NCBI RefSeq assembly: GCF_000027125.1
Contig: NC_017626.1
DNA length: 64,000 nucleotides
Strand: one strand, 5' to 3'
Source: Escherichia coli 042
GTDB taxonomy: Bacteria; Pseudomonadota; Gammaproteobacteria; Enterobacterales; Enterobacteriaceae
Shown here: positions 9,005 to 17,851 of the stretch, in pieces
Position numbering within the stretch: the stretch's first letter is position 1
Layout: every line of letters begins with the position of its first letter
Program-made: the position numbers and the translations under genes
Notes under the pieces: generated by a model
The model's input: the letters and a program-made list of their open reading frames with translations, nothing else
Told to the model about the DNA's origin: nothing
The model's database searches: none

Positions 9005-11272
9005 TTACGCTTTCACACACATAACGTGGTAAATACCGTCAATAATTTCTGTCCCTTCTGTTTCGTGTTCAAATCCAGGGAAATGATGGTCCCAGGATTG
9101 CAGCGAGCGTAAATAACTTACTTGCGGACTGTTTTTATCGCCGAAGTTTTCACCAGACAGCAGCATCGGGATTCCTGGCGGATACGGGATAACTGAGTTT
9201 GCCGCGATGCGTCCTGGCAGATTTTCAATGGATACCAGTTCGACATTGTTGTCGACAATCGCGTTGTACGCTTCACGCGGGGTGATTTCCGCCACCGGCA
9301 GGCCGGAATAGGCTTCGTTCAACCGTGCGCCAGGGTTGTTTTCTTTCAGCCAGGCAAACATGGTGTCACCCAGATCGTGAATCCCCATGTTCGCGTAAGT
9401 GTCAGGATATTGTTCAACAAGTTCCGGCATCACCTGCGCCAGCGGTGTGTTGGCGTCATAGTGGCGTTTGAAGGAGCAAAGGGTGTTAACCAGAGTCCCC
9501 CATTTCCCACGGGTTATGCCCATAGAGAACAGGAACATGATTTGGAAGTCAGTGGTGCGGGTAGGCACAATGCCGTGGCGACCAAGCCAGGCAGTGACCA
9601 GCGCCGCCGGAACACCGGTTTCTTCCAGTTCACCATCTTCACCCATTCCCGGAGCAAGGATGCTGACTTTAATCGGGTCGAGCATACTCCAGTTATCCGG
9701 AATATCTTTGAAGCCGTGCCAGCTTTCGCCCGGATGCATGACCCAGCAGTCCTGAACGGTGGTCAGCAGTTTGGTTGGTGCGTCAGCAAAGTCATAGGTT
9801 TTGCCGGTTTGTGGGTCGGTGACGACTTCTTTGTTCCACGGTTTGAAGAACCAGCTACCGTCAGCGGTGAACTCTTTATACAGCCGCGCCATCGCCTGAC
9901 GGAAATCAACCGCTTCGTCGATCACTTCCTGGGTCAGTGACAGGCCGCTGTTGCCGTCCATCATCGACACTGCCACGTCGTTGGATGCACAGATGGCATA
10001 CAGCGGGGAGGTGGTGGCATGCATCATGTAGGCCTGGTTGAAGCGGGAGAAGTTAATCGCCCCACGACCTTCACGTACATGAATATAAGAGGCCTGTGAC
10101 AGTGCATTCAGTAGTTTGTGGGTGGAGTGGGTGGCGAAAACGGTAGGACCGTTGTGATCGCCAGGTTCGCCGCGCATGGCATAGTGATCGGCATAGATCG
10201 GGTTGAAACGTGCATAGCCGTACCAGGCTTCGTCAAAGTGCAGACGATCGGAGGTTTTTTCCAGCAGATCCTGCGCTTCTTTAGCGTTATAACACACGCC
10301 GTCATAGGTACAGTTGGTCACTACGCAGTAAGACGGTTTTTGCCCGGCTTTGTCTTTAGTCAGCGGGCTTTCACTGATTTTCTTCTGCAAGGTTTCAGGT
10401 TGCATTTCCTGCGGATAGATTGGCCCGATAATGCCGTAGCGGTTGCGGCTTGGCACCATGTAGACCGGTTTCGCGCCCGTCAGCATCAAGCCTTGTTCGA
10501 TGGATTTATGGCAGTTACGGTCAACGACCACGACATCGTTATCGGTCATGCAAGCCTGCATGATGGTGCGGTTAGAGCCGGAAGTACCGACGACTACCGA
10601 CCAGGAGCGATCGGCACCAAATACGCGTGCGGCATATTTTTCGCTTTCGCCAAATGCGCCAGTATGGTCAAGCAAAGAACCGAGGGAAGTTCGTTCGATG
10701 CCCATGTCGGTGCGGAACAGATTTTCACCATAGAAGTCATGGTAGAAACGTCCGGCGGGTGTTTTGGTAAAACCAACGCCACCCTGGTGGCCTGGCGCTG
10801 CCCAGGAATATTCATGGATGTCGCTATATTTCATCAGCGCGCTGAACAGTGGCGGCAACAGTTGCTGGCGGTAGCGGGTCATCGCGGCAACGGCGCGTCC
10901 GGCGATAAAGTCGGCGGTATCTTCCAGAATCCAGGCGAATTCATCGACAAGCTCCAGCAGATCCCGGTCCATTGCGGCGAGGGCTTTTTCCCGATCGCCC
11001 AACAGGAAGACCGGCACGTTTTGTTGGCGCTCATGAAGCTTACCGATCAATTGTCTGACGTTTTGATGTTCGTCCGGATGTTCCATTTGATAGCTGAACA
11101 TCAGGCAGTCAATGGCTTCGTTTGAAGAGAGAATGGCAAAACCATCATCAAAGGAGGTGGATTTAATCACGGTAACATTTTGCTGGCTTAAAGCATCTGC
11201 CAGACGCTCAACGGCGTTACCGACCCAGGTGTCTTGATGGAGAAACTCGCTTTCAACAATTAATACTTTCAT
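9005..11272 (-). CDS. adiA: Biodegradative (acid-inducible) arginine decarboxylase AdiA
   Basis: ORF of 756 aa starting MMKVLIV; fold-type I PLP decarboxylase motifs (STHKLL); paralogous to the cadA product in this same window. Confidence 0.95.
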   Translation of the reverse strand: MKVLIVESEFLHQDTWVGNAVERLADALSQQNVTVIKSTSFDDGFAILSSNEAIDCLMFSYQMEHPDEHQNVRQLIGKLHERQQNVPVFLLGDREKALAAMDRDLLELVDEFAWILEDTADFIAGRAVAAMTRYRQQLLPPLFSALMKYSDIHEYSWAAPGHQGGVGFTKTPAGRFYHDFYGENLFRTDMGIERTSLGSLLDHTGAFGESEKYAARVFGADRSWSVVVGTSGSNRTIMQACMTDNDVVVVDRNCHKSIEQGLMLTGAKPVYMVPSRNRYGIIGPIYPQEMQPETLQKKISESPLTKDKAGQKPSYCVVTNCTYDGVCYNAKEAQDLLEKTSDRLHFDEAWYGYARFNPIYADHYAMRGEPGDHNGPTVFATHSTHKLLNALSQASYIHVREGRGAINFSRFNQAYMMHATTSPLYAICASNDVAVSMMDGNSGLSLTQEVIDEAVDFRQAMARLYKEFTADGSWFFKPWNKEVVTDPQTGKTYDFADAPTKLLTTVQDCWVMHPGESWHGFKDIPDNWSMLDPIKVSILAPGMGEDGELEETGVPAALVTAWLGRHGIVPTRTTDFQIMFLFSMGITRGKWGTLVNTLCSFKRHYDANTPLAQVMPELVEQYPDTYANMGIHDLGDTMFAWLKENNPGARLNEAYSGLPVAEITPREAYNAIVDNNVELVSIENLPGRIAANSVIPYPPGIPMLLSGENFGDKNSPQVSYLRSLQSWDHHFPGFEHETEGTEIIDGIYHVMCVKA

Positions 11273-11470
11273 CATTGCTTACCCGGTTATGAAGGAATCT
11301 TCGTTGCGGGCAAGTATCTTCCGGCCTTTTCGGGCTGTAAAGCGCGTGAAAAACAAACATTTTTGAAATATTTGTTTTTATAAACAATATGTTATGTGAT
11401 TATTTTAAATTATTTTCACTGCTTATTATCGACGGCTAAACTATTTTTTTGGCTGATACTGATATCGTCT

Positions 11471-12379
11471 TTAGCCGGGAAACGTCTGGCGGCGCTGTTG
11501 GCTAAGTTTGCGGTATTGTTGCGGCGACATGCCGACATATTTGCCGAACGTGCTGTAAAAACGACTACTTGAACGAAAGCCTGCCGTCAGGGCAATATCG
11601 AGAATACTTTTATCGGTATCGCTCAGTAACGCGCGAACGTGGTTGATGCGCATCGCGGTTATGTACTGTTTCATCGTCAATTGCATGACCCGCTGGAATA
11701 TCCCCATTGCATAGTTGGCGTTAAGTTTGACGTGCTCAGCCACATCGTTGATGGTCAGCGCCTGATCATAGTTTTCGGCAATAAAGCCCAGCATCTGGCT
11801 AACATAAAATTGCGCATGGCGCGAGACGCTGTTTTTGTGTGTGCGCGAGGTTTTATTGACCAGAATCGGTTCCCAGCCAGAGAGGCTAAATCGCTTGAGC
11901 ATCAGGCCAATTTCATCAATGGCGAGCTGGCGAATTTGCTCGTTCGGACTGTTCAATTCCTGCTGCCAGCGGCGCACTTCAAACGGGCTAAGTTGCTGTG
12001 TGGCCAGTGATTTGATCACCATGCCGTGAGTGACGTGGTTAATCAGGTCTTTATCCAGCGGCCAGGAGAGAAACAGATGCATCGGCAGATTAAAAATCGC
12101 CATGCTCTGACAGGTTCCTGTATCTGTTAGTTGGTGCGGTGTACAGGCCCAGAACAGCGTGATATGACCCTGATTGATATTCACTTTTTCATTGTTGATC
12201 AGGTATTCCACATCGCCATCGAAAGGCACATTCACTTCGACCTGGCCATGCCAGTGGCTGGTGGGCATGATATGCGGTGCGCGAAACTCAATCTCCATCC
12301 GCTGGTATTCCGAATACAGCGACAGCGGGCTGCGGGTCTGTTTTTCGTCGCTGCTGCACATAAACGTATCTGTATTCAT
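11471..12379 (-). CDS. melR: Melibiose operon regulator MelR (AraC family)
   Basis: 302 aa; N-terminus MNTDTFMCSSDEKQTRSPLSLYSEYQRMEIEF; C-terminal AraC HTH; divergent from melA. Confidence 0.93.
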   Translation of the reverse strand: MNTDTFMCSSDEKQTRSPLSLYSEYQRMEIEFRAPHIMPTSHWHGQVEVNVPFDGDVEYLINNEKVNINQGHITLFWACTPHQLTDTGTCQSMAIFNLPMHLFLSWPLDKDLINHVTHGMVIKSLATQQLSPFEVRRWQQELNSPNEQIRQLAIDEIGLMLKRFSLSGWEPILVNKTSRTHKNSVSRHAQFYVSQMLGFIAENYDQALTINDVAEHVKLNANYAMGIFQRVMQLTMKQYITAMRINHVRALLSDTDKSILDIALTAGFRSSSRFYSTFGKYVGMSPQQYRKLSQQRRQTFPG

Positions 12380-12531
12380 GGATGGCTCTCTTTCCTGGAA
12401 TATCAGAATTATGGCAGGAGTGAGGGAGGATGACTGCGAGTGGGAGCACGGTTTTCACCCTCTTCCCACAGCGGCGAGGGGAGCGTCCGAGCATCATGAG
12501 GCCGAAAACTCTGCTTTTCAGGTAACTTATT

Positions 12532-12581
12532 CCCATAAACTCAGATTTATTGATGCTTCACGTAGGATCTGAGTTTATGGG
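12532..12581. promoter_or_regulatory. melA promoter region with MelR-site-like inverted repeat
   Basis: cccataaactcagat (12532-12546) and its inverted copy atctgagtttatggg (12567-12581), ~80 bp upstream of the melA start codon. Confidence 0.5.
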
Positions 12582-12661
12582 AATGCTCAACCTGGAAGCC
12601 GGAGGTTTTCTGCAGATTCGCCTGCCATGATGAAGTTATTCAAGCAAGCCAGGAGATCTGC

Positions 12662-14017
12662 ATGATGTCTGCACCCAAAATTACATTTATCGGCGCTGGT
12701 TCGACGATTTTCGTTAAAAATATTCTTGGTGATGTGTTCCATCGCGAGGCGCTGAAAACGGCGCATATTGCCCTGATGGACATTGATCCCACCCGCCTGG
12801 AAGAGTCGCATATTGTGGTGCGCAAGCTGATGGATTCAGCAGGGGCCAGCGGCAAAATCACCTGCCACACCCAACAGAAAGAAGCCTTACAGGATGCCGA
12901 TTTTGTCGTGGTGGCATTTCAGATTGGCGGTTATGAACCTTGCACGGTGACTGATTTCGAGGTCTGTAAGCGGCATGGTCTGGAACAAACCATTGCCGAT
13001 ACGTTGGGGCCGGGCGGTATTATGCGCGCGCTACGTACCATTCCGCATCTGTGGCAAATTTGCGAGGACATGACGGAAGTCTGCCCCGATGCCACCATGC
13101 TCAACTACGTTAACCCAATGGCGATGAATACCTGGGCGATGTATGCCCGCTATCCGCATATCAAACAGGTAGGGCTGTGCCATTCGGTGCAGGGAACGGC
13201 GGAAGAGCTGGCGCGTGACCTCAATATCGACCCGGCTACGCTGCGTTACCGTTGCGCAGGTATCAACCATATGGCGTTTTACCTGGAACTGGAGCGCAAA
13301 ACCGCCGACGGCAGTTACGTGAATCTCTACCCGGAACTGCTGGCGGCTTATGAAGCAGGGCAGGCACCGAAGCCGAATATTCATGGCAATACTCGCTGCC
13401 AGAATATTGTGCGCTATGAAATGTTCAAAAAGCTGGGCTACTTCGTCACGGAATCGTCAGAACATTTTGCTGAGTACACACCGTGGTTTATTAAGCCAGG
13501 TCGTGAGGATTTGATTGAGCGTTATAAAGTACCGCTGGATGAGTACCCGAAACGCTGCGTCGAGCAGCTGGCGAACTGGCATAAAGAGCTGGAGGAGTAT
13601 AAAAACGCCTCCCGGATTGATATTAAACCGTCACGGGAATATGCCAGCACAATCATGAACGCTATCTGGACTGGCGAGCCGAGTGTGATTTACGGCAACG
13701 TCCGTAACGATGTTTTGATTGATAACCTGCCACAAGGATGTTGCGTGGAAGTAGCCTGTCTGGTTGATGCTAATGGCATTCAGCCGACCAAAGTCGGTAC
13801 GCTACCTTCGCATCTGGCCGCTCTGATGCAAACCAACATCAACGTACAGACGCTGCTGACCGAAGCCATTCTTACGGAAAATCGCGACCGTGTTTACCAC
13901 GCCGCGATGATGGACCCGCATACTGCCGCCGTGCTGGGCATTGACGAAATATATGCTCTTGTTGACGACCTGATTGCTGCCCACGGCGACTGGCTGCCAG
14001 GCTGGTTGCACCGCTAA
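12662..14017 (+). CDS. melA: Alpha-galactosidase MelA (GH4, NAD/Mn-dependent)
   Basis: 451 aa; N-terminal Rossmann motif KITFIGAGSTIF; full length as in K-12. Confidence 0.95.
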   Translation: MMSAPKITFIGAGSTIFVKNILGDVFHREALKTAHIALMDIDPTRLEESHIVVRKLMDSAGASGKITCHTQQKEALQDADFVVVAFQIGGYEPCTVTDFEVCKRHGLEQTIADTLGPGGIMRALRTIPHLWQICEDMTEVCPDATMLNYVNPMAMNTWAMYARYPHIKQVGLCHSVQGTAEELARDLNIDPATLRYRCAGINHMAFYLELERKTADGSYVNLYPELLAAYEAGQAPKPNIHGNTRCQNIVRYEMFKKLGYFVTESSEHFAEYTPWFIKPGREDLIERYKVPLDEYPKRCVEQLANWHKELEEYKNASRIDIKPSREYASTIMNAIWTGEPSVIYGNVRNDVLIDNLPQGCCVEVACLVDANGIQPTKVGTLPSHLAALMQTNINVQTLLTEAILTENRDRVYHAAMMDPHTAAVLGIDEIYALVDDLIAAHGDWLPGWLHR

Positions 14018-14664
14018 GGGGTTATCGCTTCCGGCGCTCTGGTTATCAAGCCAAAGCGCCGTAGCTGGCGGCAATGCAAGCGAGCGAGGAATATCACCGT
14101 CGTTAATGCGCCAAGCAGCGCGCAGAACATATCGGATTGCGTGTCCCACTGGTCGCCCTGGGTGCCGAGAAAATCATCCGCTCCCTGACCCATTGCCAGC
14201 GCCGCCCACCACTCGATTAATTCATACATCGCGCTTATCGCCAGCGCCACGCAACAGACCAGAAACGCCACCATTTTACGTCCGCGAACGTACATCCCGC
14301 GCACAAGGATCTCACGTGCCACCAGTGCAGGCACCAGCCCCTGGAAAAAATGCCCCAGCTTGTCATACGGATTACGGCTCAACCCCAGCCATTCCTGCAC
14401 CTCAAAACCAACGGGGACTTTCGCGTAGGTGTATTGTCCGCCGACCATCAGGATGATGGCGTGAAAGAAAATGAGCGTATAGAGCAGCGGCGTTAACGGA
14501 TAACGTCTGGCGGTGGCAAGCAGTAGCGGCACGACAATAATCACCGGTGTCACTTCCATCAGCCAGGTGAGTTTGTCATGGGCCGAAATGCCGGTATAAA
14601 TCAGGATTAACGTTAGCGCCAGTGCGCCGGTGTTAAGAATTAACGGCTTGAGTGTGCGGGTCAT
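14014..14664 (-). CDS. yjdF: Inner-membrane protein YjdF (DUF2238)
   Basis: 216-aa multi-TM ORF beginning MTRTLKPLILNTGALALTLILIY. Its stop codon overlaps the melA stop; the last ~8 codons read antisense to the sequence immediately after melA. Confidence 0.85.
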   Translation of the reverse strand: MTRTLKPLILNTGALALTLILIYTGISAHDKLTWLMEVTPVIIVVPLLLATARRYPLTPLLYTLIFFHAIILMVGGQYTYAKVPVGFEVQEWLGLSRNPYDKLGHFFQGLVPALVAREILVRGMYVRGRKMVAFLVCCVALAISAMYELIEWWAALAMGQGADDFLGTQGDQWDTQSDMFCALLGALTTVIFLARLHCRQLRRFGLITRAPEAITP

Positions 14665-14786
14665 GGTGAGTTCGCAAGTCAGGGAAAATACTGACTATTC
14701 ACCAGCAAGCGTGAAATTACAATCGTAAAAGAGGTGGCCCAGGGGGATCACCTGGCAGCATGCTGCCAGGCGCTGGGCCGAAGAGG

Positions 14787-16433
14787 TTACTTAGTGCAGT
14801 TCGCGCACTGTTTGTTGACGATTTGCTGGAAGAAGTCGTTACCTTTGTCATCGACCAGGATAAACGCCGGGAAATCTTCTACTTCGATTTTCCAGATAGC
14901 TTCCATACCCAGCTCTGGATAAGCGACGCATTCCAGATGCTTGATGCTCTGCTGCGCCAGTACCGCCGCCGGACCGCCGATGCTACCGAGGTAGAAGCCG
15001 CCGTGTTTATGACACGCGTCGGTAACCTGCTGACTGCGGTTACCTTTCGCCAGCATGATCATGCTGCCGCCGTGGGATTGCAGCAGATCCACGTAGGAGT
15101 CCATACGACCTGCGGTAGTTGGGCCAAGTGAACCTGATGGATAACCGGCAGGGGTTTTCGCCGGACCCGCGTAGTAGATCGGGTGATCTTTGATGTACTG
15201 CGGAAGTTCTTTACCGGCGTCAATCAGCTCTTTCAGCTTGGCGTGTGCAATATCTCGACCCACAATAATGGTGCCGGTGAGCGACAAACGAGTGGAAACC
15301 GGATATTGCGAAAGCTGGGCGAGGATCTCTTTCATCGGGCGGTTAAGGTCGACCTTCACCGCTTCGCCTTCACCGGCCTGACGCAGTTCTTGTGGAATGT
15401 ACTGGCCTGGATTGTGTTCCAGTTTTTCGATCCAGATACCTTCGCGGTTGATTTTCGCTTTAATGTTACGGTCAGCGGAGCAGGAGACGCCCATGCCTAC
15501 CGGGCAGGATGCGCCGTGACGTGGCAGACGGATAACGCGAATGTCGTGCGCGAAGTATTTACCGCCAAACTGCGCGCCAAGACCGAGTTTCTGGGCCTCT
15601 TCCAGCAGTTCCTGTTCCAGCTGGACATCGCGGAACGCCTGACCATGTTCGTTCCCTTCCGTCGGCAGCTCATCATAATAGTGAGCGCTTGCTAACTTGA
15701 CGGTTTTCAGGTTGGTTTCCGCAGACGTACCGCCAATCACAAACGCGATATGGTACGGCGGGCAGGCTGCCGTACCGAGGGTACGCATTTTCTCAACGAG
15801 GAAGTTTTTCAGTTTGCCGGGAGTCAGCAGAGCTTTGGTTTCCTGGTAGAGATAGGTTTTGTTGGCAGAGCCGCCGCCTTTAGCGACACAGAGGAATTTG
15901 TACTCATCGCCATCTACCGCGTACAGGTCGATTTGCGCAGGCAGGTTAGTGCCGGTGTTGACCTCTTTGTACATGTCCAGCGCCGCATTCTGTGAATAGC
16001 GCAGGTTATCTTCGATATAGGTGTTATAGACGCCTTTCGACAGCGCTTCTTCATCACCGCCGCCGGTCCACACGCGCTGACCTTTTTTACCGACGATGAT
16101 CGCGGTGCCGGTGTCCTGGCAGGTCGGCAGCACGCCTTTGGCGGCGATTTCGGAGTTTCTTAAGAATTGCAGCGCCACGTACTTGTCGTTTTCGCTGGCT
16201 TCTGGATCTTGAAGAATAGCCGCGACCTGTTTCTGGTGTGCCGGGCGGAGCATGAAAGAAGCGTCGTGAAAGGCTTGCTGCGCCAGCAGAGTCAGGGCTT
16301 CTGGTTCCACTTTCAGGATGGTTTCACCGTCGAAGTCGGCAACGCTAACGTAATCGGAAGTGAGTAGATAGTATTCGGTATTGTCTTTCCCCATCGGGAA
16401 AGGTGCCTGGTAGATAAAGGGTTTGTTTGACAT
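14787..16433 (-). CDS. fumB: Class I fumarate hydratase FumB (anaerobic, Fe-S)
   Basis: 548 aa; [31 protein letters not shown]; upstream of and co-oriented with dcuB. Confidence 0.95.
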
Positions 16434-16510: not shown

Positions 16511-17851
16511 TTATAAGAACCCGTACATCGCGGCGAAGATCCAGCCGAAGACGCACGATACGCTCACACCAATCAACCCCGGCAGAATAAAGCTGTGGTT
16601 AATGACGAAGCGACCGATGTGGGTGGTGCCGGAACGGTCAAACTGAATCGCTGCCAGATCGCTCGGATAAGTCGGCAGGATGTAATAACCGTAGCAAGCC
16701 GGTGCTGAAGCCACGATGTATGCCGGATCAACGCCGATCGCCAGCGCGACCGGAACAATCGCCGCCAGCGCCGCAGCCTGAGAGTTTACAAACTTGGAAA
16801 CCAGCAGCAGAACAATGGCATAGGCCCACGGATACTCTTTCACCATTTCGCCCAGTACGCCCTGAATTTCAGACATATGTGCACCGAACATGGTTTCTGC
16901 CATCCATGCGATACCGTACACCGCCACGATGGCGATCATACCGGAACGGAAGACTTCGTTTTTTGAGATAGACGCGGGATTGGTTTTGGTCAGGATAATA
17001 ATCAGCGCCCCGGTCAGCAGCATAAACATCTGAATAACCAGTACCATCGACAGCGGTTTGCCACCGAAGGATGGACGCAGGTCCGAATCAGCACCAAGAA
17101 GGGCGACTACAGCGATTGCCCCGAGGAAAATCCACATTGCCAGCCAGTTGCTTTTCGGCAGTTTTTTATCCAGCAGCGTCGCGGTATCACCGTAAACATA
17201 CTCACGGTTTTCCGGTACGGAGATGAATTTCTGGAACTCTTCGTCTTTATCCAGATCTTTACCGCGGAACCAGCTGAAGATACCGATCGCCAGGATACCG
17301 ATTAACGTCGATGGAATGGTGATTGCCAGCAGGTCGAGGAACTCAAGATGGCGACCATCAAAGGTGACATTACCCAGCATCGCAACCAGAGACACGACTG
17401 CAACCGACACCGGACTGGCGATAATCCCCATCTGTGCACCAATAGAACTTGCCGCCATCGGACGTTCCGGACGGATATTGTTCTTAATAGCAACGTCGTA
17501 GATGATCGGCAGAATGGTGTAAACCACATGACCCGTACCGCAAAGAATGGTCAGCGTACAGGTCACAAACGGCGCGACAATTGAGACATATTTCGGGTTA
17601 CGGCGCAGCAGCTTCTCGGCAATTTGCAGCATGACATCAAGACCGCCCGAAGCTTGCAAGGTCGCCGATGCCGCCACCACCGCAATGATAACCAGCATGA
17701 CATCAACCGGTGGTTTACCTGGCTGAAGGTGGAAGACGAAGACCAGAATGACCAGACCGATACCGCCTAATAAACCCAGCGCGATACCACCCTTTCTGGC
17801 ACCATAAAACAGACATATCAGTATTATGATAAGTTGGATAGTAAATAACAT
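16511..17851 (-). CDS. dcuB: Anaerobic C4-dicarboxylate antiporter DcuB
   Basis: 446 aa polytopic membrane protein; [22 protein letters not shown]; synteny with fumB and dcuRS. Confidence 0.95.

What the first reader, a model, noticed from the sequence alone, without database searches (positions are those of the whole stretch)
14000..14030. melB is absent: melA and yjdF converge and overlap
In K-12 the order is melR-melA-melB-yjdF. Here the melA stop (14015-14017) overlaps the yjdF stop on the opposite strand (14014-14016), and no melibiose permease ORF exists. The final ~8 codons of yjdF (RAPEAITP) are read from the antisense of the sequence immediately after melA, consistent with a deletion that removed melB and fused a new C-terminus onto YjdF. 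The expected phenotype is melibiose-transport deficiency despite an intact alpha-galactosidase.
Basis: partly seen in the sequence, partly recalled or inferred. Interest (0 to 1): 0.55.

Follow-up and report, generated by a model that had tools for sequence, protein, structure and literature searches.

The report
Old, widespread melB-less mel locus allele
This E. coli lacks the melibiose permease gene melB because it carries an old deletion variant found in about a quarter of E. coli and in sister species, and a reference strain with the same variant still ferments melibiose.

Summary
The melA stop (14015-14017) overlaps the yjdF stop on the other strand (14014-16), and no melB exists in the 64-kb window. 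K-12's 1668 bp (spacer, melB, REP elements, last yjdF codon and stop) are replaced by 23 bp (14018-14040). YjdF therefore ends ...LITRAPEAITP (216 aa) instead of ...LITG (209 aa).

This is not a private deletion. The same junction occurs in 1263 of 5426 complete E. coli genomes, in E. whittamii and in two other Escherichia lineages. A stub of it survives in E. albertii and in O80:H2 E. coli. Absence of melB from phylogroup B2 was published in 2009.

Outgroups (Citrobacter, Kluyvera) carry melR-melA-melB-SemiSWEET-yjdF, so this is a deletion, but an ancient one. In this window it sits in a patch of about 400-600 bp on an otherwise ST38-like haplotype, which points to allelic exchange by recombination.

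The predicted melibiose-negative phenotype is not supported. melA and melR are under strong purifying selection in melB-less lineages (dN/dS about 0.015). ATCC 25922 has the same junction and is MEL-positive. LacY transports melibiose and is the likely entry route.

The finding is ordinary and already known. The side observations (a low-diversity melB segment, and the likely origin of "70mel") are modestly interesting.

The parts
11471..12379 (-). melR, the AraC-family activator of the mel promoter. It is intact (302 aa).
   Evidence: ORF list. NCBIfam NF007693 MelR equivalog, 636 bits against a cutoff of 253. dN/dS of 0.013-0.036 between melB-less lineages.
12662..14017 (+). melA, alpha-galactosidase. 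It is intact (451 aa), with stop TAA at 14015-14017.
   Evidence: NCBIfam NF011657, 734 bits against a cutoff of 486. dN/dS of 0.014-0.026 between melB-less lineages at dS up to 0.43. It differs by 1 aa from ATCC 25922 MelA.
14014..14017 (.). The 4-bp overlap of the convergent melA and yjdF coding sequences. The two stop codons interlock as C-TAA on one strand and TAG on the other.
   Evidence: Sequence. The same overlap is annotated in NT1F34, MS 200-1, GF43 and ATCC 25922.
14018..14040 (.). The 23-bp junction GGGGTTATCGCTTCCGGCGCTCT, which stands in place of K-12's 1668 bp (melA-melB spacer, melB, REP elements, yjdF Gly209 codon and stop). It is probably a diverged remnant of the right half of the melA-melB spacer hairpin.
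   Evidence: The best match in the whole K-12 interval is the spacer hairpin at 15/23, with P of about 0.005 within the spacer and 0.15 over the whole interval on both strands. The junction is conserved with 1-8 substitutions in B2, GF43, E. whittamii, E1V33, SCPM-O-B-8794 and E. albertii.
14017..14040 (-). Codons 209-216 of YjdF (RAPEAITP), the non-family C-terminal tail created by the deletion.
   Evidence: Translation. The NCBIfam YjdF model aligns only to residues 1-208. The tail is RAPEAITP, RAPEATTP or RAPEALNL in other Escherichia, and always gives 216 aa.
14014..14664 (-). yjdF, a DUF2238 inner-membrane protein. This is the 216-aa form.
   Evidence: dN/dS of 0.05-0.10 between lineages that carry the long form.
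14032..14061 (.). An inverted repeat (CGGCGCT...AGCGCCG plus an inner 5 bp) that spans the junction. It forms a 12-bp hairpin on either transcript with no U-tract, so it is not a canonical terminator.
   Evidence: Fold result (z-scores of -1.8 and -0.9 are not significant). No terminator-like site lies between the two genes.
13970..14359 (.). The minimal extent of a recombination patch. Within it the window matches the melB-less strain NT1F34 and differs from ST38. Outside it (12600-13867 and 14377-14726) the window is almost identical to melB+ ST38.
   Evidence: Sliding identity and SNP table.

Best explanation
The window carries a pre-existing, ancient deletion allele of the mel locus (melR-melA-yjdF). 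It is not a new mutation. In an early Escherichia lineage, DNA from just after the melA stop to the last codon of yjdF was lost. What remained was a 23-bp remnant, which is probably part of the melA-melB spacer hairpin. As a result yjdF reads 8 extra codons and stops on the melA stop codon. The allele has persisted alongside the melB+ allele across Escherichia species, and homologous recombination in the melA and yjdF flanks moves it between backgrounds. In this strain it sits as a patch of about 0.4-0.6 kb on a backbone that otherwise resembles ST38. Functionally, the MelR-controlled alpha-galactosidase is retained and used. Melibiose, and probably other alpha-galactosides, most likely enter through LacY or another permease instead of MelB. 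The expected phenotype is therefore Mel+ whenever the lac permease is functional. Shown here: the structure, the distribution, the polarity of the change, purifying selection, and one Mel+ strain with this allele. Inferred: LacY as the entry route, the origin of the 23 bp, and which way the allele moved by recombination in this lineage.
For: - Structure.
- Shared junction: it is present in 1263 of 5426 complete E. coli genomes. It is also present in E. whittamii, Escherichia sp. E1V33 and 'E. coli' SCPM-O-B-8794, whose flanks are about 92% identical to the window.
- E. albertii and 12 E. coli genomes keep the junction plus a 34-bp melA stub.
- Polarity: melR-melA-melB-SemiSWEET-yjdF is found in Citrobacter, Kluyvera and another Enterobacteriaceae genome. 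The short YjdF ending is shared with outgroups.
- No melB elsewhere: one search combined.
- Recombination patch.
- Function retained: melA and melR are intact with dN/dS of about 0.015 between melB-less lineages.
- Phenotype: ATCC 25922 has this allele and is ONPG+ and MEL+.
- LacY catalyses melibiose transport (PMC4308713).
- Published absence of melB in all B2 genomes studied (PMC2617782).
Against: - The LacY route has not been tested in any melB-less strain here. The lac locus of the window's genome is outside the window.
- The homology of the 23 bp to the spacer hairpin is only suggestive (P of 0.15 over the whole interval on both strands), and it requires a second 23-24-bp loss next to the melA stop.
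- The age of the allele is inferred from a handful of species representatives. Spread between species by recombination could make it look older than it is.
- The direction of allelic exchange in this lineage (loss of melB here versus gain in ST38) cannot be resolved.
Confidence: 0.8

Rival explanations
1. A recent, strain-specific deletion removed melB, fused a new tail onto YjdF and made the strain melibiose-negative.
For: The structure is consistent with a deletion. Whole-operon loss does give Mel- in O80:H2 (PMC11945584).
Against: The identical junction is present in 1263 complete E. coli genomes and in other Escherichia species. ATCC 25922 has the same junction and is MEL+. melA and melR are under purifying selection without melB.
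Confidence: 0.04
2. The melB-less arrangement is the ancestral state of Escherichia (or of E. coli). Under this reading, the melB segment seen in K-12-like strains was regained from a rare melB+ Escherichia donor and swept through the non-B2 phylogroups by recombination. The window would then simply retain, or have re-imported, the older state.
For: The melB-less junction is found in deep branches (an E. albertii stub, E. whittamii, other clades and B2). melB is >=99% identical to K-12 in 4127 of 4136 carriers, against 2926 of 5399 for melA and 1637 of 5413 for yjdF. dS of melB is 0.009-0.024 against 0.05-0.18 in the flanks. The valley of diversity has edges that coincide with the indel.
Against: Outgroup genera have melB at this position, so the deletion still happened in the Escherichia stem, and a melB+ lineage must have persisted throughout. 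E. coli MelB is 84-85% identical to Citrobacter and Kluyvera MelB, which gives no sign of recent import from another genus. The sliding-window analysis used only three melB+ sequences. This rival differs from the best explanation only in which allele was common in the E. coli ancestor.
Confidence: 0.3
3. An assembly or sequencing artefact collapsed the melB region.
For: None.
Against: The same junction appears in more than a thousand independently finished genomes and is annotated by PGAP. The junction has lineage-specific substitutions.
Confidence: 0.01

Closest known systems
Absence of melB in E. coli phylogroup B2 (Touchon et al. 2009, PLoS Genet, PMC2617782, table of genes absent in B2 strains)
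   Same: Same gene missing and, as shown here, the same junction. The B2 strains MS 200-1 and ATCC 25922 carry the 23-bp junction with 1 substitution and the 216-aa or frameshifted yjdF.
   Different: The window is not on a B2-type haplotype. Its flanks are 99.5-100% identical to ST38 and only about 97% to B2. The paper lists gene absence only, not the junction, the YjdF tail or the distribution outside E. coli.
E. coli K-12 melR-melAB-yjdF reference locus
   Same: melR, melA, yjdF, fumB and dcuB are orthologous and collinear. MelR and MelA pass the curated equivalog or subfamily cutoffs.
   Different: The window lacks the 102-bp melA-melB spacer, melB and the 138-bp REP region. YjdF has 216 aa, against 209 in K-12. 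melA and yjdF overlap by 4 bp with no terminator between them.
The 'mel operon deletion with 70mel insertion' of EHEC/EPEC O80:H2 (Bizot et al. 2022, cited in PMC11945584)
   Same: It affects the same locus. The O80:H2 strain 2013C-4991 retains the window's 23-bp junction and YjdF tail.
   Different: In that allele a further 2502 bp (window 11482-13983, covering melR and most of melA) are gone, and the strains are Mel-. The window keeps melR and melA intact.
melB-less mel loci in Citrobacter (C. youngae, Citrobacter spp. Cu233, wls619, MGH106)
   Same: melR and melA are kept, melB (and the SemiSWEET gene) is lost, and melA converges directly on yjdF. melA is under purifying selection.
   Different: The junction is different: a 57-67-bp spacer with a REP-like hairpin, and YjdF ends ...SAN or ...ATN. 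This is therefore an independent loss.

Membership tests
Canonical melibiose regulon (melR + melAB operon, K-12 type) | MelR activator gene divergent from melA | tested here: met
   11471-12379 (-). NF007693 at 636 bits against a cutoff of 253.
Canonical melibiose regulon (melR + melAB operon, K-12 type) | melA alpha-galactosidase, intact | tested here: met
   12662-14017 (+). NF011657 at 734 bits against a cutoff of 486. 451 aa with no internal stop.
Canonical melibiose regulon (melR + melAB operon, K-12 type) | melB Na+/melibiose symporter immediately downstream of melA | tested here: not met
   No MelB-like sequence in the 64-kb window. In aggregate, genomes with this junction lack melB anywhere.
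Escherichia melB-less allele (as in phylogroup B2) | 23-bp junction between the melA stop and yjdF codon 208 | tested here: met
   Identical to NT1F34. 1 substitution relative to B2 strains, and 4-8 relative to other Escherichia species.
Escherichia melB-less allele (as in phylogroup B2) | 216-aa YjdF whose stop interlocks with the melA stop | tested here: met
Escherichia melB-less allele (as in phylogroup B2) | B2 genomic background | tested here: not met
   The flanks are 99.5-100% identical to ST38-like melB+ genomes and about 97% to the B2 strain MS 200-1. The phylogroup itself was not typed, because the marker genes lie outside the window.
YjdF / DUF2238 family (NCBIfam NF007369) | Full-length match to the 209-position equivalog model | tested here: met
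   466 bits against a cutoff of 353. Residues 1-208 align to model positions 1-208. Residues 209-216 fall outside the model.
Whole mel-operon deletion allele (O80:H2 '70mel' / E. albertii type) | melR and melA absent, with yjdF adjacent to adiA | tested here: not met
   melR and melA are present and intact in the window.
Melibiose-negative phenotype | No fermentation of or growth on melibiose | not testable with these tools
   Indirect evidence points the other way. ATCC 25922 carries the same allele and is MEL+.

The most novel reading that the evidence does not exclude
Presence or absence of melB is a long-lived polymorphism that crosses Escherichia species boundaries. Under this reading, the melB-less junction is the older, diversified allele. 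It would date from before the E. albertii split and may have been the state of the E. coli ancestor. The melB-bearing segment of all modern E. coli is a young haplotype that recently spread by recombination into divergent backgrounds, presumably under selection for high-affinity melibiose uptake. Parallel three-state variation (melRAB, melRA only, no mel genes) has evolved independently in Citrobacter. The 'unknown-origin' 70mel marker of O80:H2 would be an E. albertii-like derivative of the melB-less allele.
Probability: 0.35. Interest if true: 0.4.

Novelty: already known. Interest (0 to 1): 0.2.

Why it matters
As submitted, the finding matters little. It is a common natural variant whose gene-content aspect was published in 2009. 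It probably does not abolish melibiose use, so it should not be read as a metabolic defect or used alone to predict a Mel- phenotype.

The wider picture has some value for three reasons:
- It warns that genome-scale metabolic models and in-silico phenotype predictions that equate 'no melB' with 'no melibiose' will be wrong when another permease such as LacY substitutes.
- It offers a clean small example of an indel allele that is passed between lineages and species by flanking homologous recombination, with a diversity valley confined to the insert.
- It suggests a simple explanation for the diagnostic '70mel' sequence used to detect EHEC O80:H2.

Tried and rejected
1. Direct search for the 23 bp in the K-12 interval with up to 7 substitutions found nothing. 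Only the MAFFT alignment and an ungapped scan later pointed to the spacer hairpin.

2. The 3' end of the Citrobacter SemiSWEET gene as source of the 23 bp. It shares TCTGGTTATCAAG with the window junction. I rejected this because 10 of those 13 bases are yjdF coding sequence that is also present in K-12. Other melB-less lineages read TCTGGTGATTAAG, and the upstream similarity is weak.

3. Search for a surviving SemiSWEET gene between melB and yjdF in E. coli. There was no DNA match in 5426 genomes.

4. An intrinsic terminator between the convergent genes. None was found, and the junction hairpin has no U-tract and a non-significant z-score.

5. Bizot et al. 2022 (PMC8769747), sought for the 70mel sequence, is not held. 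The 70mel identification therefore remains an inference.

6. Literature searches for Mel phenotypes of melB-less UPEC or Nissle strains returned nothing usable.

7. The identity of the window's strain. No complete RefSeq E. coli is closer than about 99.0-99.3%. The phylogroup was not typed.

8. The E. marmotae mel genotype was not determined, so the ONPG/MEL co-variation in that species is only a hint.

Full report
**Observation**

The window encodes adiA (9005-11275, -), melR (11471-12379, -), melA (12662-14017, +), yjdF (14014-14664, -), fumB (14787-16433, -) and dcuB (16511-17851, -). The melA stop TAA is at 14015-14017. tblastn with K-12 MelB and blastn with the whole K-12 melA-yjdF interval find nothing anywhere in the 64 kb. 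Curated NCBIfam models confirm MelA (734 bits, cutoff 486), MelR (636 bits, cutoff 253) and YjdF (466 bits, cutoff 353). The YjdF model has 209 positions and aligns to residues 1-208 only.

**Anatomy of the junction**

In K-12 (L001), the melA stop is followed by four elements:
- a 102-bp spacer containing a hairpin (GCGCCGGGGGATTTATTCCGGCGC);
- melB;
- 138 bp of REP-type palindromes;
- the end of yjdF (...GLITG, 209 aa).

In the window these 1668 bp (L001 4268-5935) are replaced by 23 bp, GGGGTTATCGCTTCCGGCGCTCT (14018-14040). K-12 homology resumes at 14041. YjdF therefore loses Gly209 and its stop, and reads RAPEAITP before stopping on the melA stop codon.

The 23 bp have no exact counterpart in K-12. 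Their best match in the whole interval is the right half of the spacer hairpin, at 15/23 including the 9-mer TTCCGGCGC. Shuffling gives P of about 0.005 within the spacer and about 0.15 over the whole interval on both strands. A remnant of the spacer is therefore likely but not proven, and it implies a second small loss right after the melA stop.

No terminator-like site separates the convergent genes. The junction forms a new 12-bp hairpin (14032-14061) without a U-tract, and its folding z-scores are not significant.

**Distribution**

A 1.3-kb probe across the junction matches contiguously in 1263 of 5426 complete E. coli genomes. In the others it splits into a melA part and a yjdF part. PGAP annotates the same 4-bp overlap and a 216-aa YjdF in NT1F34, MS 200-1 and GF43. 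In ATCC 25922 it annotates the same overlap with a frameshifted yjdF.

melB is detectable anywhere in 4136 genomes. Adding 1263 (this junction), 12 (allele 3, described below) and 13 (no locus match) gives 5424 of 5426. Genomes with this junction therefore do not carry melB elsewhere. Touchon et al. 2009 already listed melB among the genes absent from all group B2 genomes (PMC2617782).

**Outgroups and polarity**

A scan of species-representative genomes with YjdF, followed by tblastn of the neighbouring genes, gave these results:
- The same melA/yjdF junction and 216-aa YjdF occur in E. whittamii, in Escherichia sp. E1V33 and in a strain labelled E. coli (SCPM-O-B-8794) whose flanks are about 92% identical to the window.
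- E. albertii has the same YjdF tail (RAPEALNL) followed by about 34-37 bp of the melA 3' end. Beyond that, melA and melR are gone.
- Escherichia sp. MOD1-EC7003 has the K-12 arrangement.
- C. portucalensis, C. braakii, C. amalonaticus S646, Citrobacter sp. On2M, two Kluyvera species and another Enterobacteriaceae genome carry melR-melA-melB. In these an 84-codon gene follows on the same strand before the convergent yjdF. That gene is a SemiSWEET transporter, matching solved SemiSWEET structures at E = 5e-21. No complete E. coli genome has a DNA homologue of it.

melB presence is therefore ancestral for the family, and the Escherichia allele is a deletion. The short ...I(T/A)G ending of YjdF is shared by K-12, C. 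amalonaticus and, approximately, S. arizonae.

Four Citrobacter representatives also lack melB while keeping melR and melA. Their junction is different (a 57-67-bp spacer with a REP-like hairpin), so that loss is independent. Two further Citrobacter representatives lack the whole mel cluster.

**Age and movement of the allele**

The junction has accumulated lineage-specific substitutions: 1 in B2, 4 in E1V33 and E. whittamii, and 8 in E. albertii. This fits an old allele.

In the window itself, identity to the melB+ strain ST38 is 99.5-100% through melR and melA. It falls to about 97% around the junction and then recovers. At SNP resolution, the window matches ST38 up to 13867 and from 14377 onward. 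Between 13970 and 14359 it matches the melB-less strain NT1F34, apart from three private SNPs. The melB-less junction therefore sits on a short recombinant patch. Whether this lineage imported the deletion or ST38 imported melB cannot be decided.

**Function**

melA and melR are intact in every melB-less lineage examined. They evolve under strong purifying selection between those lineages (dN/dS of 0.013-0.036 at dS up to 0.43). This is hard to reconcile with a dead pathway.

I located the mel locus of ATCC 25922 by walking its chromosome. It has melR, melA, the same junction and no melB. The strain is ONPG+ and MEL+ on API 20E (PMC11546641 Table S2). LacY catalyses melibiose transport, and lacY- hosts are used when MelB-dependent fermentation is to be scored (PMC4308713).

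My inference is that melB-less strains take up melibiose through LacY (or another permease), and that MelR and MelA do the rest. In E. marmotae, the ONPG- type strain is MEL-, and 25 ONPG+ isolates are MEL+. That fits the inference, but I did not determine the mel genotype of that species. It does hold for the whole-operon deletion in O80:H2 (PMC11945584).

**Side findings**

1. A third allele, with yjdF (216 aa) 241 bp from adiA, occurs in E. albertii and in 12 complete E. coli genomes, including ML35 and the O80:H2 EHEC strain 2013C-4991. It equals the melB-less allele with a further 2502 bp removed (window 11482-13983) and 3 filler bases. About 71 bp are left non-collinear with K-12: 23 (junction) + 34 (melA stub) + 3 (filler) + 11 (melR end). 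This is very probably the '70mel' fragment described as being of unknown origin. The E. coli copies are 97-99% identical to E. albertii, against a background of about 90%, which suggests exchange between species.

2. melB is far less diverse than its neighbours:
   - melB is >=99% identical to K-12 in 4127 of 4136 carriers.
   - melA is >=99% identical in 2926 of 5399 genomes, and yjdF in 1637 of 5413.
   - dS of melB is 0.009-0.024, against 0.05-0.18 for melA, yjdF and fumB, among K-12, ST38 and MOD1-EC7003.
   - The diversity valley coincides with the segment that the melB-less allele lacks.

   The melB-bearing segment thus coalesces recently, while the melB-less junction is old. A recent spread of melB+ by recombination is possible but not proven.

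**Verdict**

The deletion interpretation is right about polarity. It is wrong about recency and, very probably, about phenotype. The feature is a known, common natural allele and its interest is low. The evolutionary side observations are modestly interesting and are listed for follow-up.

Noticed in passing
L063 4085-4353 (E. coli O80:H2 2013C-4991), L064 (ML35), L008 5620-5860 (E. albertii); corresponds to window 14063-13984 joined to 11481-11266: A third mel-locus allele with no melR, melA or melB. It is derived from the melB-less allele by a further 2502-bp deletion, and it keeps the 23-bp junction and a 34-bp melA stub. It is present in 12 complete E. coli genomes at 97-99% identity to E. 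albertii. Its roughly 71 bp that are non-collinear with K-12 probably explain the '70mel' fragment 'of unknown origin' used as an O80:H2 marker.
   Followed up: partly
L001 4370-5791 (K-12 melB) versus flanks; L061, L007: There is a valley of nucleotide diversity confined to melB. dS is 0.009-0.024 against 0.05-0.18 in melA, yjdF and fumB, and melB is >=99% identical in 4127 of 4136 carriers. The edges of the valley match the indel. This suggests a recent common origin and recombinational spread of the melB-bearing segment.
   Followed up: partly
L016 5645-5899, L017 5657-5911, L018, L019, L020 5653-5907, L052 2631-2885, L055 5697-5951 (all - strand in locus): An 84-aa SemiSWEET sugar transporter gene lies between melB and yjdF in Citrobacter, Kluyvera and another Enterobacteriaceae genome. 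It may be a third gene of the mel cluster there. No complete E. coli genome has a DNA homologue of it.
   Followed up: partly
L010, L011, L012, L015 (Citrobacter sp. Cu233, C. youngae, sp. wls619, sp. MGH106); L009, L013: Citrobacter shows the same three states as Escherichia (melRAB, melRA only, no mel genes), with a different melA-yjdF junction. melB has therefore been lost independently while melR and melA were kept (melA dN/dS of 0.086 between two melB-less species).
   Followed up: partly
L068 11547-12189 (ATCC 25922): yjdF is annotated as a frameshifted pseudogene in ATCC 25922, which suggests that YjdF is dispensable in at least this B2 strain.
   Followed up: no
window 18001-43000: This 25-kb stretch (dcuS, cadABC, an Ag43 autotransporter gene and neighbours) is contiguous in only 126 of 5426 complete E. 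coli genomes, and the best identity is 99.3%. The window therefore comes from a sparsely sampled lineage and contains a variable island with an Ag43 gene.
   Followed up: no
NZ_CP009072.1 positions 1, 1.0 Mb and 2.30 Mb (L065-L067): Gene order in the ATCC 25922 assembly implies a large inversion relative to K-12. yegT lies at position 1 in the K-12 orientation, yiaK-O are inverted at 1.0 Mb, and fdhF/mdtNOP are back in the K-12 orientation at 2.30 Mb. Recombination between rrn operons is the probable cause.
   Followed up: no
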